Shown piece after piece: positions 1,550 through 64,000 of a DNA stretch of 64,000 bases. The first letter of the stretch is position 1; each line of letters starts with the position of its first letter. The notes beneath the pieces are model-generated. The model did not search any database. It saw nothing but the letters and a program-made list of their open reading frames with translations, and was not told the origin of the DNA. Made by a program: the position numbers and the translations under genes. The stretch is from a virus. The DNA lies in the IMG/VR virus record IMGVR_UViG_3300025886_000013; one strand, written 5' to 3'.

Positions 1550-1570
1550 TTTGGTTTCCGTTTAAATTAA

Positions 1571-10038: not shown

Positions 10039-10046
10039 TTTATTCC

Positions 10047-10997: not shown

Positions 10998-11041
10998 AAA
11001 GCTTATTACCTTGAATATATTAATATACTACACTATTGAGA

Positions 11042-11593: not shown

Positions 11594-11596
11594 TGT

Positions 11597-47067: not shown

Positions 47068-47093
47068 TTGTTATATTAACCTATCACTTAAAC

Positions 47094-47102
47094 ATTATAT
47101 CA
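47094..47102 (-). promoter_or_regulatory. Extended -10 promoter TGATATAAT upstream of the glycosyltransferase pair
   Basis: TGn-TATAAT preceded by a long T-rich tract, 26 nt upstream of ATG at 47067. Confidence 0.5.
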
Positions 47103-47128
47103 AAAATAAAAAAAATTTAAAATAATTT

Positions 47129-47977
47129 TTAAGGACAATGTGGTGTATCCTTATATGGGCAGAATTGACATGAATTTCTATTTTTCATTGCAAATTCACG
47201 CATGACTGAAGAGATCATATTGTTCATTAACTTTACGCCTTTTGCTAATGTTTTTGGTCCTACAGAGACCGGTACGATATCAACTACATTTCCTACTTTT
47301 CCGCCACGCTTAAGAAGAATAAAGGCACAACGAATATCCTTGAGTTCAATATCATATTTTTTTGAATAAAAATGCTTGTATAAAACTAACTGGGCTTGTA
47401 GAGTAAAGTCTTGTTTCTTGTCCCTTCGCCAACCATACGCTCCTGCTGTTTTCCAGTCAAGTATCCAGTAAACGTGTCCCTCTCCTCTCTTCTTTGGAAC
47501 TTTAATGATAGCATCAACGAATCCCTTAAATTTTACAGGTTTACCTTCGATTGGTTCATAAAGATATTCCTCTGCCTTGACTGTTTCCCAACCTGGGAAC
47601 TCTTTATCAAGATAATCGGGAACCTCCGCCCACATGTTTTCTGCCCATTCACACCATTTTTCTACACCGACATTTGAAGACTTTTTATACCATCCTGGCT
47701 GTTTGTCTACCCATGCTGGGTCGTCGAATCCGTGCTTTTTAAAATCATCTCTGATGTCGTTTAGCAGTTTTTCTTTATTTAGATCTTTTCCTTCAAGCAT
47801 GTTTTCACAGCCTTCGTGAACTGCAGTTCCAAAACCAAGATAAGGTGATGGCTTGAACATATCAATCTTGTCTATTCTTGCAAGCTTGTGCCGCCAACCA
47901 CATTCAGCCCACTCTTTTATTTCAGAGAATGAGACGTGTGATTTACCAGTTGGTAGTACGTATAGTTCTTCACTCAT
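47129..47977 (-). CDS. Cas4/AddB/RecB-like PD-(D/E)xK exonuclease with 4-Cys Fe-S clamp
   Basis: SFSE..ECGWRHKL, GTAVH, FKGFVD, ILDWKT, QLVLY, CQFCPYKDTPHCP. Confidence 0.82.
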   Translation of the reverse strand: MSEELYVLPTGKSHVSFSEIKEWAECGWRHKLARIDKIDMFKPSPYLGFGTAVHEGCENMLEGKDLNKEKLLNDIRDDFKKHGFDDPAWVDKQPGWYKKSSNVGVEKWCEWAENMWAEVPDYLDKEFPGWETVKAEEYLYEPIEGKPVKFKGFVDAIIKVPKKRGEGHVYWILDWKTAGAYGWRRDKKQDFTLQAQLVLYKHFYSKKYDIELKDIRCAFILLKRGGKVGNVVDIVPVSVGPKTLAKGVKLMNNMISSVMREFAMKNRNSCQFCPYKDTPHCP

Positions 47978-48002
47978 TTGATACAGCTCCTTTTATAATA
48001 TA

Positions 48003-52117: not shown

Positions 52118-52125
52118 TATAAATA
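52118..52125 (-). promoter_or_regulatory. Putative late promoter motif TATTTATA
   Basis: Exact 8-mer 23 nt upstream of ATG at 52094. Confidence 0.55.
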
Positions 52126-52145: not shown

Positions 52146-53450
52146 TCAAATCATTTTTGATATAGCAGTGGCAAGTTCTGATCTTTCACCTTTTTGTAAT
52201 GTAATGTGTCCTGAAAGATGTGATGATTTCATTTTTTCGATAAAGACGGTAAGCCCATTAGACAATGTATCTATGTAAGGTGTGTCTATCTGCTCAAGGT
52301 CACCAAGAAGAATGATTTTTGATCCTTCACCTATTCTTGTTACAATGGTCTTAAGTTCATGAACAGTTAGGTTTTGAGCCTCATCAACAATGAAAAAAGT
52401 ATTTGCAAATGTACGCCCACGAATATAAGAAAGAGGAGCTACTTCAAATTGCCCTTTCTTTCTCATCATTTCAAAATAAGATAAATCATTAAATGCCTGT
52501 CTAAAGTTATCAACAATAGGTGCAAGCCAAGGATCCATTTTCTCGTTAATATCACCAGGCAAGAATCCAATCTCTTTACCTACTGGTTGAATCGACCTCG
52601 TAATAACAATTCTTTCATATTTTTTATCGTTAATCCCAGACAGTCCTGCCATAAGAGTTAGGAATGTTTTACCTGAACCTGCTAGCCCTGACAGAGTTAC
52701 TAAGGGCACGTCATCTCTTGTTAGTAGATCAAGTGCAAATTTTTGTTCTTTATTCCTTGCACTTACATCAATTGTTCTATTTAGAAATTCTTCTACTTTT
52801 ACTAGTCTGTCTTTTTTGTGATCATATCTACATATGCAAGATTGTCTTGATGAGCTAGTCTGTAAGACAACAAATTCATTAGGTATAAATTTGTAATCAA
52901 ACTCGTCTGCTTCAACAAAACCGTCAGAATAGAACTCATCTATAATTGCAGGGTCAAAATCGTTAAGCAAAACTTGACCTGTAAAAAACTCACTAGACTC
53001 TTTTACAATTCTATCTCTGTAATAGTCTTCAGCAGAAATTCCTATAGCGTCACACTTGACTCTAAAGTTTATGTCTTTAGTGATAACTATTACATCTTTG
53101 TCTTCATTTTCTTGTATGTACTTAGCAACACCAAGTATTTTATTGTCTCCATAATCGATCTCAAGACCATCTGGAATTTTATCATCATAACAATTTAGTT
53201 CAACTCTAATTGTTTGACCATTTTCTATCTCAACACCTTTGTTGATATTTCCTTTTGATCTTAGACCATCAAGGTATCTGTTTATGTACCTGGCGTTCTC
53301 TCCGATTAATGACTGCTTGTCCTTAAACCTATCCAGTTCATCTAGAACAACAATAGGTATAATGACCTTATGACCACTTAAAGTATGAATAGAGTGGCAA
53401 TCGTAAAGAAGCACTGACGTGTCGAGTATAAAAGTTTTTTGCTTTTTCAT
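52146..53450 (-). CDS. phoH: PIN-PhoH protein (PhoH2/YlaK type)
   Basis: PIN acidic residues LDTSVLL, DELD, GDNKI, TKDINFR; PhoH GLAGSGKT, GFLPGD, YIRGRTF, DEAQN, GDLEQID, RSELA. Confidence 0.92.
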   Translation of the reverse strand: MKKQKTFILDTSVLLYDCHSIHTLSGHKVIIPIVVLDELDRFKDKQSLIGENARYINRYLDGLRSKGNINKGVEIENGQTIRVELNCYDDKIPDGLEIDYGDNKILGVAKYIQENEDKDVIVITKDINFRVKCDAIGISAEDYYRDRIVKESSEFFTGQVLLNDFDPAIIDEFYSDGFVEADEFDYKFIPNEFVVLQTSSSRQSCICRYDHKKDRLVKVEEFLNRTIDVSARNKEQKFALDLLTRDDVPLVTLSGLAGSGKTFLTLMAGLSGINDKKYERIVITRSIQPVGKEIGFLPGDINEKMDPWLAPIVDNFRQAFNDLSYFEMMRKKGQFEVAPLSYIRGRTFANTFFIVDEAQNLTVHELKTIVTRIGEGSKIILLGDLEQIDTPYIDTLSNGLTVFIEKMKSSHLSGHITLQKGERSELATAISKMI

Positions 53451-53537
53451 TATTAAGAATCCTTTTCATTGTGAACAATTAAAAATAATAATTTATATTA
53501 AACTATAAATCCTCAATCATAAAGAGTAAAAATATAA

Positions 53538-53771
53538 ATGAATACGTGTTACATAGAGAACAAAACAAAGAAAACAAATTGTAAAAAAACTGAATGTAGA
53601 TTTTGGAACGAAAAATGTGAAAATAAATGTGTAATATCTGAATCTGCAAACGGCTCAAAAACATTACAAGAGATAGGTGATATTTTTGGCGTAACTAGAA
53701 TGCGTATATGTCAGGTAGAAAAAAAGATCCTCTCCAAGCTGGAGAAGATCCTTAACAAAGAAATACTATAG
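53538..53771 (+). CDS. Stand-alone sigma70 region-4-like HTH protein with Cys-rich N-terminus
   Basis: KTLQEIGDIFGVTRMRICQVEKKILSKL; five Cys in the first 35 residues. Confidence 0.75.
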   Translation: MNTCYIENKTKKTNCKKTECRFWNEKCENKCVISESANGSKTLQEIGDIFGVTRMRICQVEKKILSKLEKILNKEIL

Positions 53772-53779
53772 TAGTTTCT

Positions 53780-54022
53780 CTATTTTTTTGAAGTCTCTGA
53801 TTTGACTTTAGCAGTTTCCTTAGCTACTGACTTAACAGCTTGAGTTGCTGATTTTTTATATTTGCTCTTTTTTAAGACCTTTGGTGCGGCCTTAACTACA
53901 GGAGCTTCCACAGCTACAGGAGCCTCTACCGCTACAGGAGCCTCTACGGCAGCTGCTGCTGCTGCTTCTGCAGCTTTTCTAGCTTTTATTCTTCTCATTT
54001 TTATACGTTTACGTATGTGCAT
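53780..54022 (-). CDS. Lys/Ala-rich histone-H1-like basic protein
   Basis: Basic N- and C-termini around AAAAAA(VEAPVA)3; GGAG SD; upstream TATTTATA. Confidence 0.6.
   Translation of the reverse strand: MHIRKRIKMRRIKARKAAEAAAAAAVEAPVAVEAPVAVEAPVVKAAPKVLKKSKYKKSATQAVKSVAKETAKVKSETSKK
53894..53947 (-). repeat. Three tandem 18-bp in-frame repeats encoding VEAPVA/VEAPVV
   Basis: Imperfect unit GTAGAGGCTCCTGTAGCN read on the minus strand. Confidence 0.85.
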
Positions 54023-54054
54023 TGGTATTCTCCATTGATAATTTTACCATTCAA

Positions 54055-54062
54055 TATAAATA
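54055..54062 (-). promoter_or_regulatory. Putative late promoter motif TATTTATA
   Basis: Exact 8-mer 32 nt upstream of ATG at 54022. Confidence 0.5.
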
Positions 54063-54166
54063 TACTTAAAACTTAAAAAGTATAAAAAAGCTCTTTTCTC
54101 ACTGTAAGAACATAACTGATTAAAGAATAAAGTGATAAGCTACGGACAACAAACCTGTTTTAGTAT

Positions 54167-54246
54167 TTACCAAGCTTTACAAGACCAATATCTGGCGCTT
54201 GTTATCGGGTCTGGATTCTTCTTAGATGTGACTCTGATATTATCAT
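54167..54246 (-). pseudogene. Gene relic: out-of-frame fusion of an N-terminus (MIISESHLRRI) and a C-terminus (NPDPITSARYWSCKAW*)
   Basis: ATG at 54246 runs 14 codons to TAA; the -1 frame gives ..NPDPITSARYWSCKAW-TAA(54167); frames meet at AATC. Confidence 0.55.
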
Positions 54247-54279
54247 AATAACAAGTATTAATTGATTTTTAAAACATAC

Positions 54280-54311
54280 AAAAAAAGCTCTACTAAACTA
54301 TAGTAGAGCTT
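54280..54311 (-). terminator. Rho-independent terminator
   Basis: 11-bp stem AAGCTCTACTA/TAGTAGAGCTT, 5-nt loop, followed by a T run on the minus strand. Confidence 0.75.
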
Positions 54312-54476
54312 ATAGATTGGTTGAACAAACATCTTTTTTTTAGTTTAAATTCTAAATTAAAAGATAGCAACAATTTACCCTTTTCTATGTTGCCTCGAAA
54401 TCCACCTGTTAAACAGGGAAACCATTTTTATTTTAGTAAGTTTGTTACCTATTATTTGTTAAATTGTTTAAATCTT

Positions 54477-54665
54477 TCAAACAGATCTGTCAGTCTCTAG
54501 TGAAACCTTAACAAGTGCAGCGGCGTTGTTCTTTAAAAGGCGTAGCCCTTTACGAAGACGTGTTCCGGCTGTTTTGTTGCCATTTGCATTCTTTAGAAGA
54601 TCAACTTCAATTGTCTCAAGAAGAACCTTGAGCTCTTCAAATCCATCTGTTAAATTACTTTCCAT
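54477..54665 (-). CDS. Histone H1-like Hc1-family nucleoid protein
   Basis: 62 aa; DLLKNANGNKTAGTRLRKGLRLLK matches the Hc1-family signature GNKAAGTRARK; GGAG SD. Confidence 0.8.
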   Translation of the reverse strand: MESNLTDGFEELKVLLETIEVDLLKNANGNKTAGTRLRKGLRLLKNNAAALVKVSLETDRSV

Positions 54666-54683
54666 AGCACTTACTCCATATTG

Positions 54684-54926
54684 TTAAAGTGGTGATAATA
54701 TAATATCACTTACATCATTATTTGTAACATTATTTTTTATATCATGTACAGCACCAGTAAGTATTCTTAGTGCATTTTGATCTTCTAGTTCCATGGCAAT
54801 AAGATTAATTAGTTGTAGCTTTTGTTCTTCATCAATACCGAAATCCATAATAACTTGATTGATTTCCCTAACCTGAAGGCTTTTGTCAGCCTTTTTTTCG
54901 TATGTTGATTTTCCATATGTTTTCAT
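54684..54926 (-). CDS. Hypothetical protein
   Basis: Helical ORF; start placed at MKTYGK immediately after the upstream stop (ORF track gives 54938). Confidence 0.55.
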   Translation of the reverse strand: MKTYGKSTYEKKADKSLQVREINQVIMDFGIDEEQKLQLINLIAMELEDQNALRILTGAVHDIKNNVTNNDVSDIILSPL

Positions 54927-54927
54927 A

Positions 54928-55395
54928 TTATTCTCCAATTGTTTCTTGAAATGATTCGCTTTTTATTTTAAATTTTCCATCACTTACAAAAAGAAGTGAC
55001 TTTATCTGTATATTATCATCTGTTCTCTCTTTTGATAATATAATTTTACTACCCCACATCTCGTTTTCTTCATAGAATTCAGCTAGTTCCCATAAAGAAA
55101 TATCACAATTGTTTGTTTCTAAAATTGATTTTAGTTTATCTGAAACAGACATACCTATATCGAATTCAGTTGGTATAGTTGAAGTTTCATCCCTTCCTCC
55201 AAGAAATTCAGACTTACAAAGATCAACAACGTTATGTAATTGACCACAGTTATTACACTGCGCAAGCTTTGCTTCACAAATTCCGTCATTTAAAATAGAG
55301 AATACTAAAAATTTATGAAATATTGGATCTTTTCTTTTTCTATACTGAGGTAATACACAATGACACTGTATTAGATGTCTAATTCCTTCTTTCAT
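54928..55395 (-). CDS. Putative zinc-binding hypothetical protein
   Basis: HLIQCHC and QCNNCGQLH motifs; ATGA-coupled to the chaperonin-like gene. Confidence 0.6.
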   Translation of the reverse strand: MKEGIRHLIQCHCVLPQYRKRKDPIFHKFLVFSILNDGICEAKLAQCNNCGQLHNVVDLCKSEFLGGRDETSTIPTEFDIGMSVSDKLKSILETNNCDISLWELAEFYEENEMWGSKIILSKERTDDNIQIKSLLFVSDGKFKIKSESFQETIGE

Positions 55396-56684
55396 CTGTC
55401 TTCCATAATAAAATAGTTAGTTGACTTTAAATCTTTTTTAATTTGATTAGCAAATTTTAGCGATATTAATAGTGACGCAGCTGAGATGTATTTTTTATCA
55501 TTTACGTTTTTGATTATTCTTGTAAGGCTGGTATCTGCTGTTTCAATTTTATTTTTCTCTATTATACCAAATTTAAACAGTTGAGTCAAATGACGAAAGA
55601 ATCTATCACAATCTTCAATTATCATCGGGTGTTTATTTAATAATTCTGTTCCAATGTCTACGTTAATTGTATTTGAAGTCAAACCTTTTAGTCTTGCATT
55701 AATGATGTCTTTGTTTATTTCTGGATTCCTTAACTTTTCAGTAAGGTTTTTTATCAAATTATTAGCTGTTTTTTGGTTTTTTGAATTTGATACTATTACG
55801 CTGGTACTATTTATATCAATAGTGACACCTGCCTGTATCCCATTGATTAGTGACATAGATATAATATCACCCATATCGGATGAAGCTATTGTAGCTCCAG
55901 TGATGACTGAGAGGTCTTTTAACATATTTAACGTATTCTCTTCCATAGGGACTTCAATAGGAATAATCGTAAATGCATCTCTAAGATTGTTCGTGTGAAT
56001 AGTATTTAAGACATCATCACCAATAGTTCTTGCAAACAAGACATAGGGTTCTTTAGTTTTGTGAGCCAGTTCCATGAAAGAGTTAATCTCTGATATCTCC
56101 ATGATAGCTCCGTCTATTAAAACAACGTTAGCGTCTTTAAATTTTGTCTTTTGTTTTAGAAAGGCAGGATTAGTCTTAATCGGAATAACGTTGTTAAACG
56201 TTTTATGAATAATAGTGTTAGGTTGTAATCTTTTTCCAACAATAACTTTTGAATTTTTGTCCGATATGTCTAATATGTCAGTTATTAGACTTGATATTAC
56301 TTTATCTTCAAAATATTCTTTTATATATTTTTTAATGTAGGCCCTATCTGGGCGCAAAGATTGTTTATTTAAAGTGTTTATAACATCATCTGAAATGTCT
56401 AAATCATTGTTAAAAATGTTCATCAAAAAATTTAAACAAAGGTCAGATGAACCAGGTGACATCATCTCGGCTTTGATACTTGAATTTAGAACAATAGACT
56501 TAATAAGTCTTATTTCGTTTTTATGCCTACTGTAGACAGCTGCTTGAGTAACAGATTTTGTCTTTAATGTTGTATTGTTAAACAAAGAAAGCTTTTCACC
56601 GACTTCTGTTAGAACAGAAAAATCAGTGAAAAGCTTATCTATGCTTTTTTTTATTTCATTTGAGTTTTTGATTTTGCAAAACAT
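55392..56684 (-). CDS. Degenerate GroEL/Cpn60-like protein (apical domain retained, ATP-binding loop lost)
   Basis: NVVLIDGAI..KEPYVLFARTIGDDVLNTIHTNNLR..MLKDLSVITGATI; INARLKGL; GDGTTT replaced by SPGSSD; 430 aa. Confidence 0.75.
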   Translation of the reverse strand: MFCKIKNSNEIKKSIDKLFTDFSVLTEVGEKLSLFNNTTLKTKSVTQAAVYSRHKNEIRLIKSIVLNSSIKAEMMSPGSSDLCLNFLMNIFNNDLDISDDVINTLNKQSLRPDRAYIKKYIKEYFEDKVISSLITDILDISDKNSKVIVGKRLQPNTIIHKTFNNVIPIKTNPAFLKQKTKFKDANVVLIDGAIMEISEINSFMELAHKTKEPYVLFARTIGDDVLNTIHTNNLRDAFTIIPIEVPMEENTLNMLKDLSVITGATIASSDMGDIISMSLINGIQAGVTIDINSTSVIVSNSKNQKTANNLIKNLTEKLRNPEINKDIINARLKGLTSNTINVDIGTELLNKHPMIIEDCDRFFRHLTQLFKFGIIEKNKIETADTSLTRIIKNVNDKKYISAASLLISLKFANQIKKDLKSTNYFIMEDR

Positions 56685-56706
56685 AAAATATTTTACAATA
56701 AAATAA

Positions 56707-56943
56707 TCAAATTGTTTTTAATTTATCTTCTTCTACCCAAATTATAATATTGTTATTTCCCTCTACGTTAACTAAATCACGTGAATTGACATTAATTGCC
56801 TTCATGTTAGATCCGACCCAAGACATTTTTTCATACTTGGATCCTGGTTTAAGAAAGACTATCTCGTCAATATTTGGGTAATAAAAATTATTATTTCCAA
56901 GTATAGATCTATAAGCTTTAATTCCATTCAATGTTTTAGTCAT
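56707..56943 (-). CDS. Small beta-rich hypothetical protein in the groES position
   Basis: 78 aa with GAGG SD, directly upstream of the GroEL-like gene. Confidence 0.55.
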   Translation of the reverse strand: MTKTLNGIKAYRSILGNNNFYYPNIDEIVFLKPGSKYEKMSWVGSNMKAINVNSRDLVNVEGNNNIIIWVEEDKLKTI

Positions 56944-56988
56944 GTTAACCTCAATATGTAGTATTATAAACTAAAACAATTGATTGTA

Positions 56989-58923
56989 TTAAGAATCTCT
57001 CCACAAGTTGTTAGATGCATATTGAAGAATTTCTTCTGCTGATTTAGCATTGTACCCATAGTCATCAATCATGGTTTGAACCATCTCTGAGTATTTCTCT
57101 TGTTGTCCTTCGTCACGAGTTTTTGACTTTGTAACAATTCTGGCTATATCCTTAACAGAAGAGATTAAGTATGATTCAATTGCCTCACGTAGTGGTCCAT
57201 AACTGTCATAAGTTACTTTTTCTCCTCTTCTCATTTTAGCGAACATAAATGCCGTAACGTCGCTTCTGAATCCGTCTCTTGAAGAACCAACTATTCCGAT
57301 TTGCTCCTCAATTGTCTTAAGGAAGTTCTCATCTGGCTGCATTTCTTCTTTTGTGACTTGATCCTTTAGCTTAGAGTGCGTGGTGTAAGCCTCTGCGTGG
57401 TCAAGATATGAATCAAACAATGACTGAGCTTGTTCAGAGTATGCAGATATGAATGCCTTAGCGATTTCTGTTTCAAGGATTCTTAGATATTCATCACGTA
57501 CAACCTTCTGAAGTATCTCGAGGTATCTACTTCTATCGTCTTCGTTGATAACTTGCTCAGATACTTGAGTTTGAAGTGCTTGAATAACAGAGACAGGTGT
57601 AACAAGATTGTTATCAGAGTCAGAAAGTGCGTTATCTATTGCTTTCATTATAAAGCGTGTTGAAATTCCTTTCATACCTTCATCACGTGATTCACTACGA
57701 AGATCATTAATGTCGATCTTCTTTACTCTTCCTTTTTCAATAACGTCGTCGCCGTTGTAGATTTTCATTTTAGTAAGAATGTCACACTTAGCTGATTCTT
57801 TTAATCTGCTCATTACAGAGAACATGGAGGCTACCCTCAATGTATGTGGTGCAATGTGAGCGTTAAAATCACTCATACCGAGCATCTTATTATAGATTCT
57901 TTCTTCTTGACTTACTTCTAGAACGTAAGGTACGTTGATTTTTACAATACGATCCATAATTGCTTCGTTTGTATGCTCGCTTTGGAATTTGTTCCACTCT
58001 GACTCGTTTGTATGAGCAAGAATAATACCATCAAAGTAGATCATGTTGTTCTTACCAGGACTTGGTACCTGCTTTTCTTGTGTTGCTGTAATAATAGTGT
58101 GCAAGAATTCAATTTCATTCTTGAACATTTCTACCATTTCTACGATACCACGGTTACCAACGTTGAATGCACCGTTAAGTGAGAGAACTCTTGGGTCGTC
58201 TTCTGCGTAAAGATCAAGCTTAGAGATATCTTCCGTTCCAATAAGAACTGATATATCCTGTGAGTTTGCATCCATAGGTGGAACAGCTGCAAGTCCGCGG
58301 CGAGCGCGCTCTGAGAATGATGCTGTTTTTACGGGGAAGTCTTCATATTTTGTGTTAAATTCATTGATGAGTCTGTATCTACATACTGGGCAAAGGTCTC
58401 CTTCGATTTTAACTCCTAGCAGCTCTTCAAACTTGCTACGTAGACTACGTGGTATAAGGTGAAGTGGTTCTTCCCTAATTGGACAACCATCAAGATAGTA
58501 AGCAGGAGCACTCATTTCAAGAGCTCTTTTTATGTGGTTTGTTACAGCTGATTTTCCAGCGCCAACAGGACCCATAAGAAGTAGTACCTGGCGTGATTCT
58601 TCGCCTTTATGCGCAGCTGAGTTTAAAAATCTCATTATTTTGTAAATTGTTCTTTCGTTTCCAAAAAAACTATCCTTAAAATAGTCATATACCTTTATAT
58701 CGTCATTGTCAAAAATCTTTCTCTGACGACCGGTGTCTGGATCTAGGTGAGAGATTCCTTTATTTTCAATAGACTTAACTAACCGCTTGTGGGCTAGATC
58801 GCATATTTCTGGGTTTTTCTTTACAACATCAAGATACTGTAGAAAAGTCCCATTAAACTTTTCTTCTTTTTTAATGTTTCTTTGCGCTTCTATAAGCTTT
58901 AAAAAGTCTTGTTCTTTCGCCAT
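56989..58923 (-). CDS. prkA: PrkA/YeaG family AAA+ ATPase (serine kinase)
   Basis: LLLMGPVGAGKS, CPIREEPLHLIP, GNRGIVEMVEMFK, ILAHTNESEW, EAIMDRIVKINVPY, EGMKGISTRF; 644 aa. Confidence 0.95.
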   Translation of the reverse strand: MAKEQDFLKLIEAQRNIKKEEKFNGTFLQYLDVVKKNPEICDLAHKRLVKSIENKGISHLDPDTGRQRKIFDNDDIKVYDYFKDSFFGNERTIYKIMRFLNSAAHKGEESRQVLLLMGPVGAGKSAVTNHIKRALEMSAPAYYLDGCPIREEPLHLIPRSLRSKFEELLGVKIEGDLCPVCRYRLINEFNTKYEDFPVKTASFSERARRGLAAVPPMDANSQDISVLIGTEDISKLDLYAEDDPRVLSLNGAFNVGNRGIVEMVEMFKNEIEFLHTIITATQEKQVPSPGKNNMIYFDGIILAHTNESEWNKFQSEHTNEAIMDRIVKINVPYVLEVSQEERIYNKMLGMSDFNAHIAPHTLRVASMFSVMSRLKESAKCDILTKMKIYNGDDVIEKGRVKKIDINDLRSESRDEGMKGISTRFIMKAIDNALSDSDNNLVTPVSVIQALQTQVSEQVINEDDRSRYLEILQKVVRDEYLRILETEIAKAFISAYSEQAQSLFDSYLDHAEAYTTHSKLKDQVTKEEMQPDENFLKTIEEQIGIVGSSRDGFRSDVTAFMFAKMRRGEKVTYDSYGPLREAIESYLISSVKDIARIVTKSKTRDEGQQEKYSEMVQTMIDDYGYNAKSAEEILQYASNNLWRDS

Positions 58924-58945
58924 TCTAGATTACCTCTTCCTTTAC

Positions 58946-58953
58946 TATAAATA
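58946..58953 (-). promoter_or_regulatory. Putative late promoter motif TATTTATA
   Basis: Exact 8-mer 22 nt upstream of prkA ATG, followed by GAGGT SD. Confidence 0.55.
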
Positions 58954-58993
58954 ATGCTCAAATTTCAATAAAAAATAAAAATACAAAATATTT

Positions 58994-60298
58994 TTAAATT
59001 TCCCATGGTTCTTCTTCAATTATTGTTTCCAACTTAACTACATTTTTCCAAATTTTTGAAACATTGTTAATAACTACATTGGCATAGTTCAACTCTAAGT
59101 CTCTTCCATCATGATCGTGACCAAGTACTATTGTACCACGTGGTTCAAGAACTTCAACAAACATCTTTGGAATGCTGCCCACGCCTGTTTGCTTTATAAG
59201 ATTGTTTTTTACTTCTTTCCAACCACCTTCATCAGATATTTCATTTATAACGTACGCTTTCTTTTTTCTGTCTTTGGCGTAAGAAAATAAATTAAGATCT
59301 ATCATTTGATCTAGATCAAGATAATTTCTAATAAATGATTCATCATGAAACACTTCTCTGATCATAAAGATTTCATCTCTTCCTAGTTCTTTGTCAAGTT
59401 TTTGAAACATTTCAAATCCAAGATGATATGGATTGATCCCACCAATGTGAGGACGTATGACCTGGTTGTGAGATTTAATAAAAGGCAAATGCATTTTAGA
59501 TGGAAGTTTTAGCTCGTTCATTATTGTATAATGCCAGTAAGAAGCCCATCCTTCATTCATAATTTTTGTTTTAATCTGTGGAATGAAATATAATGATTCT
59601 TCTCTTACGATATTAATGACATCTAGTTCCCAATCAGAGAAATGTTTTCCTTGTTCCATAAAGAATGCTAGTAGATCGTATTCTCTTCTTAAAGGGACCT
59701 GATTAATATCAACACCGATATTCTCACCAGATTTTAGTCTTTCACTTAGTTCATCTCTAACTTCTTCGTAAGACATTCTTTTAATGCTGTCTCTATTTAC
59801 TTGATATTTTATAGAGTGAAGACTATCTAACAAACTTTCTACTTTGTCAATTCCAATACTTGGATCTTCCATGTAGTTTTTTATTCTTTTCTTTGCGTTT
59901 CTAAAACGAGAGACAGCAGAAGAAGGCCTTGTATCACCAAATGTAATGTTATTTTTAAAGAAATCGCTATGACCAATACAGTGTGCCATAATAAGAACTT
60001 GTAAATATAGTGGGTTCTCTTTCATGAGATAAGCAATTGAAGGATTAGAATTAATAATAAGTTCGTAAGGTAACCCAGACTGCCCATGGTTGTACATCTG
60101 ATGTGTTCTTTCAAATGATTTACCATAACTCCAATGATCATAGTGAGAAGGCAGCCCATGATAGCTCATATGACCTATCATCTCGTAGTAATCACAAATA
60201 TCATAGTTAATAGGAAACCAATCTAGACCGAAATCAGCAGCTACATTGCAAACTCTTTCATCCCACTCTTCTAGTTCTTTTACTGTCCAGTCAGACAT
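58994..60298 (-). CDS. spoVR: SpoVR/YcgB family protein
   Basis: GLPSHYDHWSYGKSF, YELIINSNPSIAYLM, AHCIGHSDFFKNN, YFIPQIKTKIMNEGWASYWH, NPYHLG, DESFIRNYL. Confidence 0.95.
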   Translation of the reverse strand: MSDWTVKELEEWDERVCNVAADFGLDWFPINYDICDYYEMIGHMSYHGLPSHYDHWSYGKSFERTHQMYNHGQSGLPYELIINSNPSIAYLMKENPLYLQVLIMAHCIGHSDFFKNNITFGDTRPSSAVSRFRNAKKRIKNYMEDPSIGIDKVESLLDSLHSIKYQVNRDSIKRMSYEEVRDELSERLKSGENIGVDINQVPLRREYDLLAFFMEQGKHFSDWELDVINIVREESLYFIPQIKTKIMNEGWASYWHYTIMNELKLPSKMHLPFIKSHNQVIRPHIGGINPYHLGFEMFQKLDKELGRDEIFMIREVFHDESFIRNYLDLDQMIDLNLFSYAKDRKKKAYVINEISDEGGWKEVKNNLIKQTGVGSIPKMFVEVLEPRGTIVLGHDHDGRDLELNYANVVINNVSKIWKNVVKLETIIEEEPWEI

Positions 60299-61473
60299 TA
60301 TTTCATTCCTCCAAATAGTTTAACAAATGCTGGCCAAATATCATCTTTAGACTGTAAGAGCATTGTTTTAAATTTATTATCTATTAATGGTGTATACACG
60401 TTCATCATTGTATTCCCACTACTCCAGCTTGCCCACTCTTGTTGACCAGATGGCTTTATTTCAATAAAACCATACATTTGACTTTTTTCTTTTAGTTGTC
60501 TTGTAAGCTCTAGAGCTTTGTCGTTGTCCTCTGACCAGTTATCACCATCTGATCCGTGGAACGCATAAATGTTCCAGCTTGAAGGATGGTATCTTTTATT
60601 CATAACTTCCAAAGCCAGTTCAGGCGCAGATGAAACAAACGTTCCACCACTTTGCCCACGAGAGAAAAACTCAGATTCTGATACTTCCTTTGCTTCAGTT
60701 GTATGCGCTATAAACACAACTTCAATTTTGTCGTATTTATAACGAAGAAACTGGTATAAAAGAAAAAAGAATGATCTTGCAATAAATTTCTTTTGAGTCC
60801 CCATAGAGCCTGAAACATCCATCATGAAGAAAATTACAGCATTACTGTTTTCTTTAGGCGTCTCTGTTATAAATTTATATCTTAGATCATTTTCGTGGAA
60901 GGGAAATCTTGCTTCATCTTCATCGCTGTATGTGCCAGCTCTTTTAGCAGCATTTTTTCTTCTTAGCTTGCGCTTAAGTGTTTCTTTTTTATCTAGACGT
61001 GGTCTAATACCTTGATTGCGATAACCATGTCGCTTCATTTTTTCACCAATGATATTAGTGAATCTTTTCTTTTCAAGGTCAGGAAGATTAAGTGAATCAA
61101 ATAGATATGCTGCCAACTCTTCTAGTGAGATCTCTACATCATAGAACTCTTCACCGGATTCACTGCCTGGTTTATTTCCACTTGCTTTTTCTTTCTTGTC
61201 AGCCTTACCTATCTGTTGTCCCTTTCGTATGTTCTTGCCTGGAGCTGACCCTACCTGTTTATTTGTATCGTTATCGCCAAATACAAATCTGTATTCTTTT
61301 ATACCCTTGACAGGAATTTTTATTTTTTTCTTTCCATCTTGACCAATAATAGATTCGTCTGCAATAATGTCATGAATTCCTTCACGTATTGCTCTTTCTA
61401 TTTTTTTCTTGTGACGAGATCTATCAGATGCTGATCTATCTGCAATCGTTTTATGTTCCTTAAAAATGCTCAT
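60298..61473 (-). CDS. yeaH: YeaH/YhbH (DUF444) vWA-domain protein
   Basis: KIKIPVKGIKEYRF, PFHENDLRY, AVIFFMMDVSGSM, VFIAHTTEAKEV, GGTFVSS, WNIYAFHGSDGDNW. Confidence 0.95.
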   Translation of the reverse strand: MSIFKEHKTIADRSASDRSRHKKKIERAIREGIHDIIADESIIGQDGKKKIKIPVKGIKEYRFVFGDNDTNKQVGSAPGKNIRKGQQIGKADKKEKASGNKPGSESGEEFYDVEISLEELAAYLFDSLNLPDLEKKRFTNIIGEKMKRHGYRNQGIRPRLDKKETLKRKLRRKNAAKRAGTYSDEDEARFPFHENDLRYKFITETPKENSNAVIFFMMDVSGSMGTQKKFIARSFFFLLYQFLRYKYDKIEVVFIAHTTEAKEVSESEFFSRGQSGGTFVSSAPELALEVMNKRYHPSSWNIYAFHGSDGDNWSEDNDKALELTRQLKEKSQMYGFIEIKPSGQQEWASWSSGNTMMNVYTPLIDNKFKTMLLQSKDDIWPAFVKLFGGMK

Positions 61474-61509: not shown

Positions 61510-62079
61510 TTAAAGTGTATTAGCAATAGCCGTATTAATCATCTCCTGATTATATCCACGAATATAACTATTCATTACCATTTCATTATCAATAAAAAAG
61601 AAAGTAGGCCAGCTAGAAATATAAAATCCGTCATTAGAAGTAACGTCAATCATTTCATCCCTTGGGGCTGATAATGTAGGAGTATCTAGTTCGAAATTAT
61701 TTATCCATTCAACAAGTTCAGATTGAGTAGGAGTGTTTCCTGACCATCCTTCAACAATTAAACTAATATAAACGATCTCATCTTCTTTAAACAGCTCCAT
61801 TGTGTCTGGTATTTCATATGCAGCTTGTTGACAATAATAGCACCCAATCGTAGAAAAATTTAAAACAATTGTCTTACCATAAAAATCATAAAGATTTACT
61901 TCATTACCTTCGTCATCTAAAAGCGCAAAATTACATGTATATTCTCCGACTACATAACCGCAGTCATTAAATATAACATTGTTCGCTATTGATTCGTTTG
62001 TGTCAATGCTGTTTTCAACTTCAAAAGTAGAAGATTCACAACCAGTTAAAAGAATAAAAAATAAAGCTGATTTAAACAT
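61510..62079 (-). CDS. TlpA/ResA-like thioredoxin-fold lipoprotein
   Basis: Lipobox LTG-C, NFALLD..VNLYDFYGKTIVLNF, active site CYYC, WPTFFFID. Confidence 0.82.
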   Translation of the reverse strand: MFKSALFFILLTGCESSTFEVENSIDTNESIANNVIFNDCGYVVGEYTCNFALLDDEGNEVNLYDFYGKTIVLNFSTIGCYYCQQAAYEIPDTMELFKEDEIVYISLIVEGWSGNTPTQSELVEWINNFELDTPTLSAPRDEMIDVTSNDGFYISSWPTFFFIDNEMVMNSYIRGYNQEMINTAIANTL

Positions 62080-62413
62080 GATATTTCATCCATTCATAAT
62101 TGTTTCTACTTTCTAAGTATCCGTTATCAACAGAGTGCTCATAAGCTTCTTGTTCAAATCTAGTTTGATAGTAAGCCAGGTCACTATCTCTATATTTCAG
62201 CAATCCACGTATCCAATCATAAAGGTACAAAGCTAAAAATCCTATTACAAAAAGCTCGTTATACTGGGCAATGTGAATTGACTCATGACGTATAAGTCTC
62301 TCATTAGCTGTATCTTTAATAAATATAAAAGGCCACAGAGTTATTGCACCTATGTCTGCTATTAAACTAATTATTTTTGGGACTTTACTGTTTTCGATTA
62401 TTATTGGTTTCAT
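62072..62413 (-). CDS. Membrane-associated HExxH metallopeptidase-like protein
   Basis: AITLWPFIF..LIRHESIHIAQ..hydrophobic helix..RFEQEAY. Confidence 0.7.
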   Translation of the reverse strand: MKPIIIENSKVPKIISLIADIGAITLWPFIFIKDTANERLIRHESIHIAQYNELFVIGFLALYLYDWIRGLLKYRDSDLAYYQTRFEQEAYEHSVDNGYLESRNNYEWMKYHV

Positions 62414-62437: not shown

Positions 62438-62445
62438 TATAAATA
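62438..62445 (-). promoter_or_regulatory. Putative late promoter motif TATTTATA
   Basis: Exact 8-mer 24 nt upstream of ATG at 62413; overlaps the start codon of the divergent protease gene. Confidence 0.45.
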
Positions 62446-63215: not shown

Positions 63216-63633
63216 AAAATTATATATCGATAAGAATCTACACAAATGTGTAGATAATTGTGAAGTTGCAAAGAGATTTATTAATTTCTGTGGTGATAAA
63301 CTAGAAATAGAATGTGACTACGAAATATATGTTGTAGAGAATAGATCTGAAAACAACATAACAACGACGGCATTTTATGATCCAAACAATAAAATAATAA
63401 AAATCTATGGAAAAAATAGAGCATTTGTCGACGTGTTAAGATCAATAGCACATGAGATGACTCACATGAGGCAGGATATTAATGGTGAGATAACAGGACC
63501 TATCCAAGACATTGGAGGTTATCACGAGAACCAGGCAAATGCAATGTCCGGGGCCTTAATAAAGATGTTCGCTAAAGACGATGACGAAGGACGTGTGATA
63601 TATGAAGGAATGAGACAGAGAAAATTAATCTAA
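63208..63633 (+). CDS. HExxH zinc-metallopeptidase-like protein
   Basis: TAFYDP..IKIY..LRSIAHEMTHMRQ..HENQANAMSG. Confidence 0.7.
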   Translation: MNRKLYIDKNLHKCVDNCEVAKRFINFCGDKLEIECDYEIYVVENRSENNITTTAFYDPNNKIIKIYGKNRAFVDVLRSIAHEMTHMRQDINGEITGPIQDIGGYHENQANAMSGALIKMFAKDDDEGRVIYEGMRQRKLI

Positions 63634-64000
63634 ACGATTTTTAGAATCTTATTGATCTCATTAGGGTTCTCTTCCTCTTTGGCTTTCATAGCAGATGCAA
63701 CTCCACTGCTTTTAATATTTATGTCTCCAAAAAAAGCTTCGCAATCATTTTTCATATCTCGAGTAACTTTTCCACGAACGTAAAAGTGAACTCTGTCTTT
63801 GCTTCCTTGCCAAGATAAGCCCACGTCTTTGGCTATCGCAACAATAGGTTCCCAAGTAGCATCAGAGCTCTTCATTCTAGCAGACACGACTTTTCCATTC
63901 TTGTCAGGAGGAAGATTTACATTTATGTCTAGTGCAAAGCCATATTGATGATCAGATCTACATGGTTGAGCTGTCATACTACCTTTACCGCTGTCACGTA
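63630..64000 (-). CDS. Peptidase M15-family peptidoglycan hydrolase, C-terminal part (5' end outside the window)
   Basis: SDHQYGFALDI (SxHxxGxAxD), GLSWQG..DRVHF; frame stays open upstream of 63977 to the window edge. Confidence 0.8.
   Translation of the reverse strand, partial: RDSGKGSMTAQPCRSDHQYGFALDINVNLPPDKNGKVVSARMKSSDATWEPIVAIAKDVGLSWQGSKDRVHFYVRGKVTRDMKNDCEAFFGDINIKSSGVASAMKAKEEENPNEINKILKIV

What the first reader, a model, noticed from the sequence alone, without database searches (positions are those of the whole stretch)
52146..61473. Candidate phage-encoded host dormancy / nucleoid-condensation system
Seen: in 9.3 kb, PIN-PhoH, a sigma4-only protein, an H1-like basic protein, an Hc1-family histone-like protein, two small conserved-looking ORFs, an ATPase-degenerate GroEL and PrkA-SpoVR-YeaH. 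Known: Hc1 condenses the chlamydial elementary-body nucleoid; prkA/yhbH/spoVR are sigmaE sporulation genes in Bacillus and yeaG/yeaH/ycgB are RpoS or nitrogen-starvation genes in E. coli; PIN-PhoH2 proteins are RNA helicase-RNases. Inference: together they could push the infected cell into, or sustain infection within, a condensed stress-tolerant state (virospore-like or pseudolysogenic). I am not aware of a description of this combination, but could not search.
Basis: inference. Interest (0 to 1): 0.82.

Follow-up and report, generated by a model that had tools for sequence, protein, structure and literature searches.

The report
Two linked accessory modules in marine phage
The listed genes are real and sit in a block conserved across an abundant group of large marine phages, but they form two separable modules (a borrowed bacterial starvation trio and a block of unknown function), not one dormancy or DNA-condensing system.

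Summary
Observation confirmed. The window is a large T4-like marine phage contig. Positions 52146-61473 encode PIN-PhoH, a 4-Cys plus sigma-region-4 mini-protein, an Hc1-domain protein, a GroEL homologue without its ATP site, two conserved small proteins, and DUF444(YeaH/YhbH)-SpoVR-PrkA. The K/A-rich "H1-like" ORF and orf78 are lineage-specific and unverified.

The order is kept in dozens of IMG/VR contigs. Whole-record searches split it into two modules.
- Module A (DUF444-SpoVR-PrkA) is monophyletic in this phage clade and permuted from the bacterial prkA-yhbH-spoVR order. It is under strong purifying selection (dN/dS 0.02-0.04) and more conserved than the large terminase.
- Module B is GroEL-like, orf155, orf84, Hc1, sigma4 and PIN-PhoH.

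In some jumbo relatives A and B lie 130-150 kb apart. Two near-complete relatives keep A and PIN-PhoH but lack Hc1, orf155, sigma4 and the pseudo-GroEL.

The Hc1 protein lacks the Lys/Ala tail. The habitat is open seawater. A 2026 paper shows YeaG drives bulk starvation proteolysis. I therefore read A as a phage-borne proteome-recycling module (inferred). B's function is unknown.

The dormancy/condensation reading is not supported as one system. This scan has noted the phage trio on other DNA many times.

The parts
60298..61473 (-). Module A, gene 1: DUF444 (YeaH/YhbH-like) protein, 391 aa, with a von Willebrand-type MIDAS motif (DVSGSM)
   Evidence: Pfam PF04285 1.5e-112. Best NCBIfam model is TIGR02877 spore_yhbH, 421.6 bits, below its cut-off of 468. 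MIDAS motif present in 33 of 35 phage homologues; dN/dS 0.036 against L002.
58994..60298 (-). Module A, gene 2: SpoVR/YcgB-family protein, 434 aa; its start overlaps the DUF444 stop
   Evidence: Pfam PF04293 3.7e-120. NF008737 268.7 bits, below cut-off. dN/dS 0.037. Phage clade monophyletic, SH-aLRT 99.
56989..58923 (-). Module A, gene 3: PrkA/YeaG-family AAA+ protein, 644 aa, Walker A GPVGAGKS intact
   Evidence: Pfam AAA_PrkA 4e-141 and PrkA_C 1.2e-78. Walker A present in 37 of 37 phage homologues; dN/dS 0.022. 66-72% identical across the clade, against 51-59% for TerL. Monophyletic, SH-aLRT 100.
58946..58953 (-). Promoter-like motif (sense strand TATTTATA) 23 nt upstream of the PrkA start. 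The same motif lies at 62438-62445 (before orf113), 54055-54062 (before the K/A-rich ORF) and 52118-52125 (before the gene after PIN-PhoH).
   Evidence: 7 of 9 sense-strand copies fall in the 6.9% non-coding DNA, 19-33 nt before start codons, three of them before virion-type genes. The reverse-complement control gives 1 of 5. The exact 8-mer is not conserved in relatives (3 of 33).
56707..56943 (-). orf78, lineage-specific small ORF; coding status unverified
   Evidence: No family match. No homologue in relatives, and the small ORFs at the same position in relatives are unrelated.
55392..56684 (-). Module B, gene 1: GroEL-like pseudo-chaperonin, 430 aa. The apical and intermediate domains are kept; the ATP-binding motifs and part of the equatorial domain are lost.
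   Evidence: phrog_5725 4.3e-21. Family profile against PDB GroEL 5.5e-37. AF2 pLDDT 83.4. Foldseek hits are GroEL/Hsp60 only. Motif loss shown in the alignment with full-length phage GroELs. G005 and G001 carry a normal GroEL in addition.
54928..55395 (-). Module B, gene 2: orf155, a conserved Cys/His-rich protein (likely zinc-binding), 155 aa, with no recognised fold
   Evidence: Invariant H7 C11 C13 H27 C47 C50 H54 in 17 sequences. AF2 pLDDT 90. No PDB match: Foldseek E>0.02, best VIA Z 4.0 to the LysW zinc ribbon. 275 IMG/VR contigs encode relatives.
54684..54938 (-). Module B, gene 3: orf84, a conserved small acidic protein of unknown function
   Evidence: Homologues at the same position in 18 distinct relatives, 28-49% identity. 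No family match.
54477..54665 (-). Module B, gene 4: short (62 aa) Hc1-domain protein without a Lys/Ala-rich tail
   Evidence: Pfam PF07432 1.4e-11. HctA equivalog only 25.5 bits against a cut-off of 100, covering residues 5-40. Invariant GN..AG.R.R core in 19 phage sequences. 3728 metagenomic relatives, many from Tara. No match in isolated phages.
54285..54311 (-). Intrinsic-terminator-like hairpin (11-bp stem plus T run) after the Hc1 gene; predicted end of the PrkA-to-Hc1 transcription unit
   Evidence: sequence read.
53780..54022 (-). K/A-rich basic 80-aa ORF with an (EAPVAV)3 repeat, its own promoter-like motif and a terminator (53723-53753); specific to this phage
   Evidence: pI 10.7, K+R 28%, Ala 25%. 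No family match. No counterpart in relatives. An in-frame 12-nt indel in an independent sample suggests it is coding. Terminator.
53538..53771 (+). Module B, gene 5: 77-aa protein with four conserved Cys followed by a sigma-70 region 4.2 helix-turn-helix; transcribed divergently from PIN-PhoH
   Evidence: Pfam PF04545 4.9e-9. C4, C15, C20, C31 nearly invariant and TRMRICQIEK invariant. Present in 55 of 55 orf155-anchored loci. A virus-specific family in the ESM Atlas.
52146..53450 (-). Module B, gene 6: PIN-PhoH (PhoH2-type) predicted RNA helicase/RNase, 434 aa, with Walker A GLAGSGKT and Walker B IVDEAQN
   Evidence: Pfam PIN_4 3e-29 and PhoH 2.6e-52. phrog_2765 6.2e-99 over the full length. 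NF053827 PhoH2 284.7 bits, below cut-off. Present in all five relatives' records searched.
61510..62413 (-). Two upstream genes probably co-transcribed with DUF444-SpoVR: orf113 (62072-62413) and an AhpC/TSA-like thioredoxin-fold protein (61510-62079). Conserved only in the closest relative.
   Evidence: Pfam AhpC-TSA 1.6e-9. Found only in L002, at 60-68%. Promoter-like motif at 62438.

Best explanation
The region is a conserved accessory stretch of an abundant, uncultivated clade of large to jumbo T4-like marine phages. It is two independent modules that happen to be adjacent in this lineage, not one system.

Module A (DUF444/YhbH-SpoVR-PrkA) is a bacterial prkA-yhbH-spoVR operon captured once by the clade's ancestor. 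It was circularly permuted and has been kept under strong purifying selection. Most likely it does in the infected cell what YeaG/PrkA does in starving bacteria. An AAA+ PrkA, working with its von Willebrand-type partner DUF444 and with SpoVR, would drive broad ATP-dependent turnover of stable cytoplasmic host proteins. That would release amino acids and energy for phage protein synthesis in nutrient-poor hosts. This would parallel the way T4-type phages recycle host DNA into nucleotides.

Module B is a pseudo-GroEL, a Cys/His-rich (likely zinc-binding) protein, orf84, a short Hc1-domain protein, a 4-Cys plus sigma-region-4 protein and PIN-PhoH. It is a separately inherited block of unknown function. 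Its parts point to control of nucleic acids and gene expression: DNA binding, RNA polymerase or promoter binding, and RNA unwinding or cleavage. The pseudo-GroEL would be an ATP-independent binding scaffold.

Shown here: gene identities, motif integrity, synteny, separability, joint origin and selection. Inferred: the proteolytic, nutrient-recycling role and everything about module B's function.
For: Identities.

Phage context: portal, large terminase and baseplate. The nearest isolates by TerL reach only 44-46% identity.

Synteny.

Separability:
- G001 (297,894 bp, terminal repeats) has module B at 285-292 kb and the trio at about 152-157 kb, as a three-gene island on the opposite strand to its neighbours.
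- G007 has them 150 kb apart.
- G002 and G003 have the trio and PIN-PhoH but no Hc1, orf155, sigma4 or pseudo-GroEL.
- 19 of 55 orf155-anchored loci have no trio within 7.5-10 kb.

Joint single origin of the trio:
- The phage clade is monophyletic in all three trees.
- The closest real bacteria are 53-58% (PrkA), 41-49% (DUF444) and 41-44% (SpoVR) identical, with the order PrkA-DUF444-SpoVR.
- Most relatives leave only 10-30 nt between SpoVR and PrkA, so the trio is an operon.

Selection: dN/dS 0.02-0.04, Walker A in 37 of 37, MIDAS in 33 of 35. PrkA is 66-72% identical where TerL is 51-59%.

Repeated capture: phage PrkA genes outside this clade (Ralstonia RsoM2USA with L041; L042) fall elsewhere in the tree, and Thermus phages also carry it.

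Function from the literature:
- YeaG is required for starvation-induced, largely non-specific degradation of cytoplasmic proteins, which supplies amino acids and ATP (PMC13684143).

Habitat: marine and estuary water-column metagenomes of at least 13 studies.
Against: - No experiment or expression data for the phage genes. The only RNA trace is one 221-nt metatranscriptome contig over the PrkA 5' end, and DNA carry-over is not excluded.
- The biochemistry of PrkA/YeaG is still disputed (kinase or protease). The roles of YeaH and SpoVR in proteolysis are not shown; the 2026 paper does not mention them.
- The host is unknown, so 'nutrient-poor host' is an assumption from habitat.
- The adjacency of A and B looks ancestral in the PrkA tree and is kept in most sampled relatives. 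In this phage a promoter-like motif before PrkA and a terminator after Hc1 predict that PrkA is co-transcribed with module B genes. Some functional coupling is therefore not excluded.
- None of the proteins reaches an NCBIfam equivalog cut-off.
Confidence: 0.5

Rival explanations
1. First reader's model. All nine or ten genes act together as a phage-encoded programme that condenses the host nucleoid and pushes the infected cell into, or sustains infection within, a dormant, stress-tolerant ('virospore'-like or pseudolysogenic) state.
For: - The cluster is syntenic in most sampled relatives.
- In this phage PrkA to Hc1 is predicted to be one transcription unit.
- The trio is tied to stationary phase and sporulation in bacteria (PMC9512850, PMC13684143).
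- spoVR has been proposed as a virome gene that manipulates host physiological state (PMC8940887).
- An Hc1 domain is present.
Against: - The trio and the rest separate by 130-150 kb in G001 and G007. The trio persists without Hc1, orf155, sigma4 and the pseudo-GroEL in the near-complete G002 and G003.
- The Hc1 protein lacks the Lys/Ala tail and scores 25.5 against the HctA cut-off of 100.
- The K/A-rich ORF is unique to this phage.
- No integrase or lysogeny gene was seen in the window, which carries lytic-type structural and lysis genes.
- No PADLOC or toxin-antitoxin signal.
- The water-column habitat argues against sporulating hosts.
- The role now shown for YeaG is proteolysis that fuels synthesis, not growth arrest.
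Confidence: 0.08
2. The trio is a signalling or host-maintenance module, not a bulk protease. PrkA would act as a Ser/Thr kinase or regulator, with YhbH and SpoVR as partners. It would reprogramme host stress regulons, as YeaG affects RpoS-linked and nitrogen-starvation responses, to keep a starving host metabolically competent until lysis, or to redirect host enzymes by phosphorylation.
For: - YeaG has been reported to autophosphorylate and to phosphorylate AceA, as cited in PMC9512850.
- The PrkA_C kinase-like domain is fully retained (1.2e-78).
- Conservation and selection are strong.
- The virome literature frames spoVR as a 'host survivability' gene (PMC8940887).
Against: - The B. subtilis work found no kinase activity and a degenerate P-loop in the C-terminal domain, but clear ATP-dependent proteolysis (PMC9512850).
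- The yeaG deletion phenotype in carbon starvation is loss of protein degradation flux (PMC13684143).
- Nothing in the sequence distinguishes the two activities.
Confidence: 0.22
3. The region is part of the late, virion-assembly programme.
- The pseudo-GroEL would be an assembly chaperone or scaffold.
- The AAA+ PrkA with the von Willebrand-type DUF444 would act as a MoxR/VWA-like remodelling pair for a phage complex.
- The Hc1-domain protein would be packaged with, or would organise, phage DNA.
- The sigma-region-4 protein would be the region-4 half of a split late sigma factor, working with the weak gp55-like protein at 43598-44335.
For: - The block lies directly upstream of, and is co-oriented with, the structural genes.
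- The same sense-strand motif TATTTATA precedes three virion-type genes and four genes of this region.
- There is a weak gp55-like late sigma hit (phrog_234 8.3e-5).
- AAA+/VWA pairing is a known chaperone architecture (general knowledge).
- Full-length phage GroELs exist in relatives.
Against: - The exact motif is not conserved in relatives.
- In G001 the trio sits far from module B and on the opposite strand to its neighbours.
- The trio is a complete bacterial operon whose cellular role is unrelated to virions.
- No virion proteome is available.
- The gp55-like call has no Pfam support.
Confidence: 0.15

Closest known systems
Bacterial prkA-yhbH-spoVR / yeaG-yeaH-ycgB starvation module (B. 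subtilis PrkA; E. coli YeaG, proposed name SpdA)
   Same: - All three families are present and full length, with Walker A and MIDAS intact.
- The three genes are contiguous and tightly spaced like an operon.
- The closest bacterial homologues carry the three genes together.
   Different: - Encoded by a lytic-type phage.
- Gene order is permuted to yhbH-spoVR-prkA, against prkA-yhbH-spoVR in the bacterial loci.
- Only 53-58%, 41-49% and 41-44% identical to the nearest bacteria found.
- All three score below the NCBIfam equivalog cut-offs.
PrkA/SpoVR genes already annotated in phages and viromes (Thermus phages phiYS40/TMA 'serine kinase'; Ralstonia jumbo phage RsoM2USA ORF28-30; spoVR as a 'sporulation AMG' in marine OMZ viromes)
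   Same: The same three families occur in phage genomes. spoVR is reported as abundant in marine viral metagenomes and proposed to alter host physiological state (PMC8940887).
   Different: - Those phage genes are only 30-34% identical to this PrkA, have the bacterial order, and fall elsewhere in the tree, so they are independent captures.
- None has been studied functionally.
- The marine clade with the permuted trio next to module B did not turn up in the literature searches.
Group I chaperonin GroEL, including phage-encoded GroELs (e.g. Vibrio phage chaperonins, phrog_5725)
   Same: Same three-domain fold (Foldseek E 1e-23, probability 1.0). Recognisable apical and intermediate domains.
   Different: - 410-480 aa instead of about 525-548.
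- GPKG, KDG, GDGTTT, the GGG loop and about 75 equatorial residues are missing in every member.
- No Pfam Cpn60 hit.
- It coexists with a normal GroEL in G001 and G005.
- It cannot be an ATP-driven foldase of the GroEL type.
Chlamydial histone H1-like protein Hc1 (HctA) and short Hc1-domain proteins (PF07432)
   Same: Matches the Pfam Hc1 domain over 51 of 57 positions, above the gathering score. The conserved basic core is GN..AG.R.RKGLR.
   Different: - 62 aa with no Lys/Ala-rich C-terminal tail.
- HctA model matched only over residues 5-40, at 25.5 bits against a cut-off of 100.
- Phage-encoded, with no tblastn match in isolated phages.
- DNA condensation is untested.
PhoH2 (PIN-PhoH) RNA helicase/RNase and phage PhoH-like proteins (phrog_2765)
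   Same: PIN_4 plus PhoH architecture over the full length; Walker A and B present.
   Different: Below the PhoH2 equivalog cut-off (284.7 against 680). Always paired with a divergent 4-Cys plus sigma-region-4 gene in this clade. PhoH is ordinary in marine phages, so it adds little on its own.

Membership tests
PrkA/YeaG family | N-terminal AAA_PrkA domain plus C-terminal PrkA domain | tested here: met
   PF08298 4e-141 (26-380) and PF06798 1.2e-78 (383-635).
PrkA/YeaG family | Intact Walker A lysine (K108 in B. subtilis, essential for the ATPase and protease activities) | tested here: met
   GPVGAGKS at 118-125. Invariant in alignment A5 and present in 37 of 37 phage homologues. Requirement taken from PMC9512850.
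PrkA/YeaG family | NCBIfam equivalog score (NF011999, cut-off 576 bits) | tested here: not met
   396.9 bits: a diverged member, not an equivalog.
PrkA/YeaG family | ATP-dependent proteolysis, or kinase activity | not testable with these tools
   Needs biochemistry.
prkA-yhbH-spoVR operon | All three genes present and contiguous | tested here: met
   60298-61473, 58994-60298 and 56989-58923. Contiguous in all 37 or more marine phage loci.
prkA-yhbH-spoVR operon | Canonical order prkA, yhbH, spoVR | tested here: not met
   The phage order is yhbH-spoVR-prkA. Bacterial loci L052-L063 have prkA-yhbH-spoVR.
DUF444 (YeaH/YhbH) | PF04285 match and MIDAS DxSxS motif | tested here: met
   1.5e-112. 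DVSGSM present in the window protein and in 33 of 35 homologues. TIGR02877 scores 421.6, below its cut-off of 468.
SpoVR/YcgB | PF04293 match over the full length | tested here: met
   3.7e-120, residues 3-374. NF008737 equivalog cut-off not reached (268.7 against 679).
GroEL (group I chaperonin) | Equatorial-intermediate-apical three-domain fold | tested here: met
   Foldseek top 50 hits are all GroEL/Hsp60, E down to 1.3e-23. Profile against PDB 5.5e-37.
GroEL (group I chaperonin) | ATP-binding motifs (GPKG, KDG, GDGTTT, the GGG loop; C-terminal equatorial segment) | tested here: not met
   Absent or replaced in all 22 family members, while two full-length phage GroELs in the same alignment have them.
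GroEL (group I chaperonin) | Pfam Cpn60_TCP1 or NCBIfam GroEL cut-off | tested here: not met
   No Pfam hit at E<=0.1. TIGR02348 scores 42 bits against a cut-off of 582.
Hc1 (chlamydial histone H1-like) | Hc1 domain PF07432 | tested here: met
   44.5 bits against a cut-off of 23.5.
Hc1 (chlamydial histone H1-like) | Lys/Ala-rich C-terminal DNA-condensing tail; HctA equivalog score | tested here: not met
   The protein ends at residue 62, and family members are 60-68 aa. HctA NF051889 scores 25.5 bits against a cut-off of 100, over residues 5-40 only.
Hc1 (chlamydial histone H1-like) | DNA binding and nucleoid compaction | not testable with these tools
   Needs expression and microscopy or EMSA.
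Sigma-70 family sigma factor | Region 4 helix-turn-helix | tested here: met
   PF04545 36 bits against a cut-off of 24.1.
Sigma-70 family sigma factor | Region 2 (core binding and -10 recognition) | tested here: not met
   77 aa in total. Residues 1-35 carry four conserved Cys with no region 2 or 3. It is a region-4-only protein, not a sigma factor.
PhoH2 (PIN-PhoH) | N-terminal PIN plus C-terminal PhoH P-loop ATPase | tested here: met
   PIN_4 3e-29 (7-143) and PhoH 2.6e-52 (229-432). GLAGSGKT and IVDEAQN read. Equivalog cut-off not reached.
Known anti-phage defence, toxin-antitoxin or dormancy systems | Match to a PADLOC system protein | tested here: not met
   Only weak generic P-loop or HTH matches, best 1.7e-5 at 21.7 bits.

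The most novel reading that the evidence does not exclude
The adjacency is functional after all. The phage would run an 'autophagy-like' takeover in which PrkA-YhbH-SpoVR liquidates the host cytoplasmic proteome. Module B would meanwhile shield what the phage needs. The Hc1-domain protein would coat DNA; nucleoid-bound proteins escape YeaG-dependent loss in E. coli (PMC13684143). The ATP-less GroEL would act as a holdase or adaptor that protects phage proteins or presents substrates. PIN-PhoH and the sigma-region-4 protein would redirect RNA and transcription. This would be a coordinated phage programme for infecting starved cells.
Probability: 0.12. Interest if true: 0.8.

Novelty: new variant of a known kind. 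Interest (0 to 1): 0.45.

Why it matters
Most marine bacteria live close to starvation, and how large lytic phages pay for their own synthesis there is an open question.

This work shows an abundant, globally distributed phage clade that keeps a complete bacterial starvation module more conserved than its own terminase. Unrelated phages have captured the same module again. The module's core protein has just been shown to drive bulk proteolysis that supplies amino acids and ATP in starving E. coli. Together these give a concrete, testable hypothesis: phage-driven recycling of the host proteome.

The work also removes an attractive but unsupported reading (a dormancy or 'virospore' system). It defines a second conserved block of unknown function, containing an ATP-less GroEL, an unrecognised Cys/His-rich fold, an Hc1-domain protein and a sigma-region-4-only protein.

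Five marine 'MAG' contigs carrying this block are probably mis-binned phage DNA, which matters for anyone inferring bacterial metabolism from those bins.

Tried and rejected
- Near-identity DNA search of the 9.3 kb against 50,697 phage records: no match.
- tblastn of the Hc1 protein against isolated phages: no match.
- PADLOC scan of ten proteins: only weak generic hits, so no link to known defence or abortive-infection systems.
- orf155 fold searches (Foldseek PDB and VIA-align wide): nothing above noise.
- Homologues of the K/A-rich 80-aa ORF and of orf78: none by BLAST. The interval between Hc1 and PIN-PhoH in relatives holds unrelated genes or nothing, and the small ORFs at the orf78 position in relatives are unrelated.
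- Conservation of the exact TATTTATA motif upstream of the cluster genes in relatives: not found (3 of 33 for PrkA). The 'late promoter' reading therefore holds for this phage at most.
- Expression:
  - No RNA run holds the 9.3 kb.
  - One metatranscriptome held 7% of the PrkA words.
  - The second gave one identical 221-nt contig at 58748-58950 and short pieces of relatives, too little to claim transcription.
- Donor inference: the genome scan works from peptide patterns and returned only 20 loci. 'Sister to a Bacillota-rich clade' is provisional.
- Host identification: not achieved.
- gp55-like call at 43598-44335: PHROG only, no Pfam support.
- No complex prediction was run, because no physical interaction is claimed.

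Full report
**Context**

The 64-kb window is a tailed-phage contig with almost all genes on the minus strand.
- PHROG profiles identify a portal (1571-3556), a large terminase (3652-5262), an SbcC-like nuclease (6038-9178) and a baseplate wedge protein (39067-40902).
- Further along are an M15 endolysin-type peptidase (63630-63977), glycosyltransferases and a weak gp55-like late sigma match.
- The nearest isolated phages by terminase are a Microcystis phage (44%) and Flavobacterium 'immuto' phages (46%). This is an uncultivated T4-superfamily lineage.
- The 9.3-kb region has no near DNA match in 50,697 phage records.
- Near-identical DNA occurs in marine, estuary and seawater metagenomes from at least 13 independent studies.

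**Observation**

- Pfam finds PIN_4+PhoH, Sigma70_r4 (on the plus strand), Hc1, AAA_PrkA+PrkA_C, SpoVR and DUF444.
- The 430-aa protein has no Pfam chaperonin hit. A profile of 21 family members matches solved GroELs at E 5.5e-37. The AlphaFold model (pLDDT 83.4) retrieves only GroEL/Hsp60 structures.
- I aligned the family with two normal full-length GroELs encoded by related phages. GPKG, KDG, GDGTTT (SPGSSDL in the window), the GGG loop and about 75 residues of the C-terminal equatorial domain are missing in every member. This is a pseudo-chaperonin that cannot bind ATP the way GroEL does.
- orf155 and orf84 are conserved. orf155 has invariant H7, C11, C13, H27, C47, C50 and H54 and a confident model (pLDDT 90) without a recognisable fold.
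- The 77-aa plus-strand protein combines four conserved cysteines with a sigma-70 region 4.2 helix-turn-helix. It belongs to a virus-specific family of region-4-only proteins.
- The 'H1-like' 80-aa ORF is basic and Ala/Lys-rich, but it has no family and no counterpart in any relative.
  - It carries its own promoter-like motif and a terminator.
  - It shows an in-frame 12-nt length variant in another sample.
  - It is probably a real but lineage-specific gene.
- orf78 is unverified.

**Is the cluster a unit?**

A scan of IMG/VR with PrkA returned 42 loci.
- About 25 of them keep the full order: DUF444, SpoVR, PrkA, GroEL-like, orf155, orf84, Hc1, sigma4 (opposite strand), PIN-PhoH. Protein identities are 20-72%, with variable genes inserted at a few hot spots.
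- A dozen loci had the trio with other neighbours.

Searching whole records settled what that means.

| Record | Size and state | Trio (A) | Module B |
|---|---|---|---|
| G005 | 281 kb, 92% complete | present, adjacent to B | complete |
| G001 | 297,894 bp, terminal repeats, complete | about 152-157 kb, a three-gene island on the opposite strand to its neighbours | complete, at 285-292 kb |
| G002 | 190 kb, estimated 100% complete | present | PIN-PhoH only |
| G003 | 168 kb, 92% complete | present | PIN-PhoH only |
| G007 | 204 kb fragment, 60% complete | PrkA 150 kb from B | complete |

- G001 also has a normal GroEL about 5 kb from the trio.
- G002 and G003 also carry a normal GroEL, but no Hc1, orf155, sigma4 or pseudo-GroEL.

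The reverse scan with orf155 found 275 contigs.
- Among 55 loci with enough flank, sigma4 and PIN-PhoH accompany orf155 in all 55. Hc1 is present in 52 and the pseudo-GroEL in 49.
- The trio is adjacent in 36 and absent within 7.5-10 kb in 19.
- The G007 arrangement comes from one of those 19 contigs.

There are therefore two modules. A is the trio. B runs from the pseudo-GroEL to PIN-PhoH. They are adjacent in the window's lineage, unlinked in others, and A persists without most of B.

**Origin and selection of module A**

- In trees of PrkA, SpoVR and DUF444 the marine phage sequences form one clade (SH-aLRT 100, 99 and 93).
- In the limited sample available, that clade is sister to a Bacillota-rich bacterial group.
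- Those bacterial loci have the order prkA-yhbH-spoVR and are 53-58%, 41-49% and 41-44% identical to the phage proteins.
- The best NCBIfam model for the DUF444 protein is the sporulation-type YhbH, not the proteobacterial YeaH models. No protein reaches an equivalog cut-off.
- The operon was thus captured once, circularly permuted, and inherited. In most relatives SpoVR and PrkA are 10-30 nt apart.
- Selection is strong. dN/dS against the closest relative is 0.036, 0.037 and 0.022. Walker A is intact in 37 of 37 and MIDAS in 33 of 35.
- PrkA is 66-72% identical across phages whose terminases are only 51-59% identical.
- Other phages acquired the module separately. These are Ralstonia RsoM2USA with L041, L042/L043, and Thermus phages.
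- The 69-70% 'bacterial' hits in marine MAGs carry the phage-type permuted trio, three of them with module B. They are evidently mis-binned phage contigs.

**How it most likely works**

- The trio's cellular role was obscure until recently.
  - A PNAS paper of October 2026 shows that E. coli YeaG is required for starvation-induced degradation of cytoplasmic proteins.
    - The degradation is largely non-specific and supplies amino acids and ATP for new protein synthesis.
    - Nucleoid-associated and ribosomal proteins are largely spared (PMC13684143).
- A lytic phage of nutrient-limited marine bacteria has an obvious use for such an activity. I therefore read module A as a phage-borne proteome-recycling device. 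This step is inferred.
  - The roles of YhbH and SpoVR are not established even in bacteria.
  - The kinase or signalling alternative remains open.
- In this phage the sense-strand motif TATTTATA lies 19-33 nt upstream of orf113, PrkA, the K/A-rich ORF, the gene after PIN-PhoH, and three virion-type genes.
  - Seven of nine copies fall in the 6.9% non-coding DNA, against one of five for the reverse-complement control.
  - With terminators after Hc1 and after the K/A-rich ORF, this predicts the units orf113-AhpC-like-DUF444-SpoVR and PrkA-to-Hc1. It suggests the same temporal class as structural genes.
  - The exact motif is not conserved in relatives, and there are no usable expression data.
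- Module B's function is unknown. Its parts suggest nucleic-acid and transcription control: a short Hc1-domain DNA binder, a region-4-only protein and a PhoH2-type helicase/RNase. The ATP-less GroEL would act as a binding scaffold.

- The dormancy or nucleoid-condensation model needs the parts to act together and needs Hc1 to condense DNA.
- The parts are separable.
- The Hc1 protein is a 62-aa short form without the Lys/Ala tail. It scores 25.5 bits against the HctA cut-off of 100.
- The tail-like ORF is unique to this phage.
- No lysogeny, defence or toxin-antitoxin signature was found.
- The water-column habitat makes sporulating hosts unlikely.
- Viral spoVR as a manipulator of host physiological state has already been proposed from viromes (PMC8940887). 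PrkA and SpoVR are annotated in RsoM2USA and in Thermus phages (PMC8504454).
- Earlier notes of this scan report the phage trio in at least 51 other genomes. One covers the same permuted arrangement and one covers a T4-like clade with late-promoter motifs. I used these as leads only.

**Verdict**

The trio is a further, well-supported member of a known kind of phage-borne host module. The recent proteolysis result now gives it a concrete, testable mechanism. Module B is an undescribed conserved block worth separate study.

Noticed in passing
window 5676, 14207, 32503, 52118, 54055, 58946, 62438 (plus-strand TATAAATA, sense TATTTATA): An orientation-specific promoter-like 8-mer lies 19-33 nt upstream of seven minus-strand genes, both structural and accessory. 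Seven of nine copies are in the 6.9% non-coding DNA, against one of five for the reverse complement. The exact motif is not conserved upstream of PrkA in relatives.
   Followed up: partly
window 53538-53771 (+) and 43598-44335 (-): The 4-Cys plus sigma-region-4-only protein belongs to a virus-specific family. Together with the weak gp55-like (sigma region 2-like) hit, it might form a split late sigma factor, the region-4 half being a DNA-binding analogue of T4 gp33. The gp55-like call rests on one PHROG hit (8.3e-5) with no Pfam support.
   Followed up: partly
window 54928-55395 (-): orf155 is a highly conserved Cys/His-rich protein (likely zinc-binding) encoded on 275 IMG/VR contigs. Its model is confident (pLDDT 90) but matches no solved fold. 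Only the N-terminal ribbon weakly resembles LysW (Z 4.0).
   Followed up: partly
window 53873 and 54279-54360: An independent marine sample (run X2) carries the same phage, differing at only 4 and 29 bases on its two long contigs. It has an in-frame 12-nt deletion in the (EAPVAV) repeat of the K/A-rich ORF and a burst of indels in the non-coding stretch between Hc1 and that ORF.
   Followed up: no
L047-L051 (GenBank 'MAG' contigs CAZMUK010000072, NHDW01000006, PBIO01000025, PBNF01000027, JBBAUR010000009): Contigs binned as Luteolibacter, Methylococcaceae TMED69 (305,838 bp), Halobacteriovorax, Legionellales and Bdellovibrionota carry the phage-type permuted trio at 69-70% PrkA identity. Three of them also carry module B. 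They are very probably mis-binned jumbo-phage DNA.
   Followed up: partly
L044 (G001:145000-160000) 727-2358 (-), 2396-2680 (-), 7310-11795 (+): In the complete 298-kb relative the trio is a plus-strand three-gene island among minus-strand genes. It lies about 5 kb from a normal 543-aa GroEL, which has a 94-aa ORF just upstream (possibly GroES; not checked).
   Followed up: partly
window 61510-62413 (-): An AhpC/TSA-like thioredoxin-fold protein and orf113 precede DUF444 under the same promoter-like motif. They are conserved only in the closest relative (L002).
   Followed up: no
window 58748-58950: One 221-nt contig of a marine metatranscriptome (run X25) is identical to the PrkA 5' end plus upstream region. 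This is suggestive of transcription, but DNA carry-over cannot be excluded.
   Followed up: partly
window 44654-49880 (-): Three glycosyltransferase-like genes (two phrog_2170 and one GT2 domain) and a PD-(D/E)XK-type exonuclease lie between the cluster and the baseplate genes. This may be a DNA- or surface-modification block.
   Followed up: no
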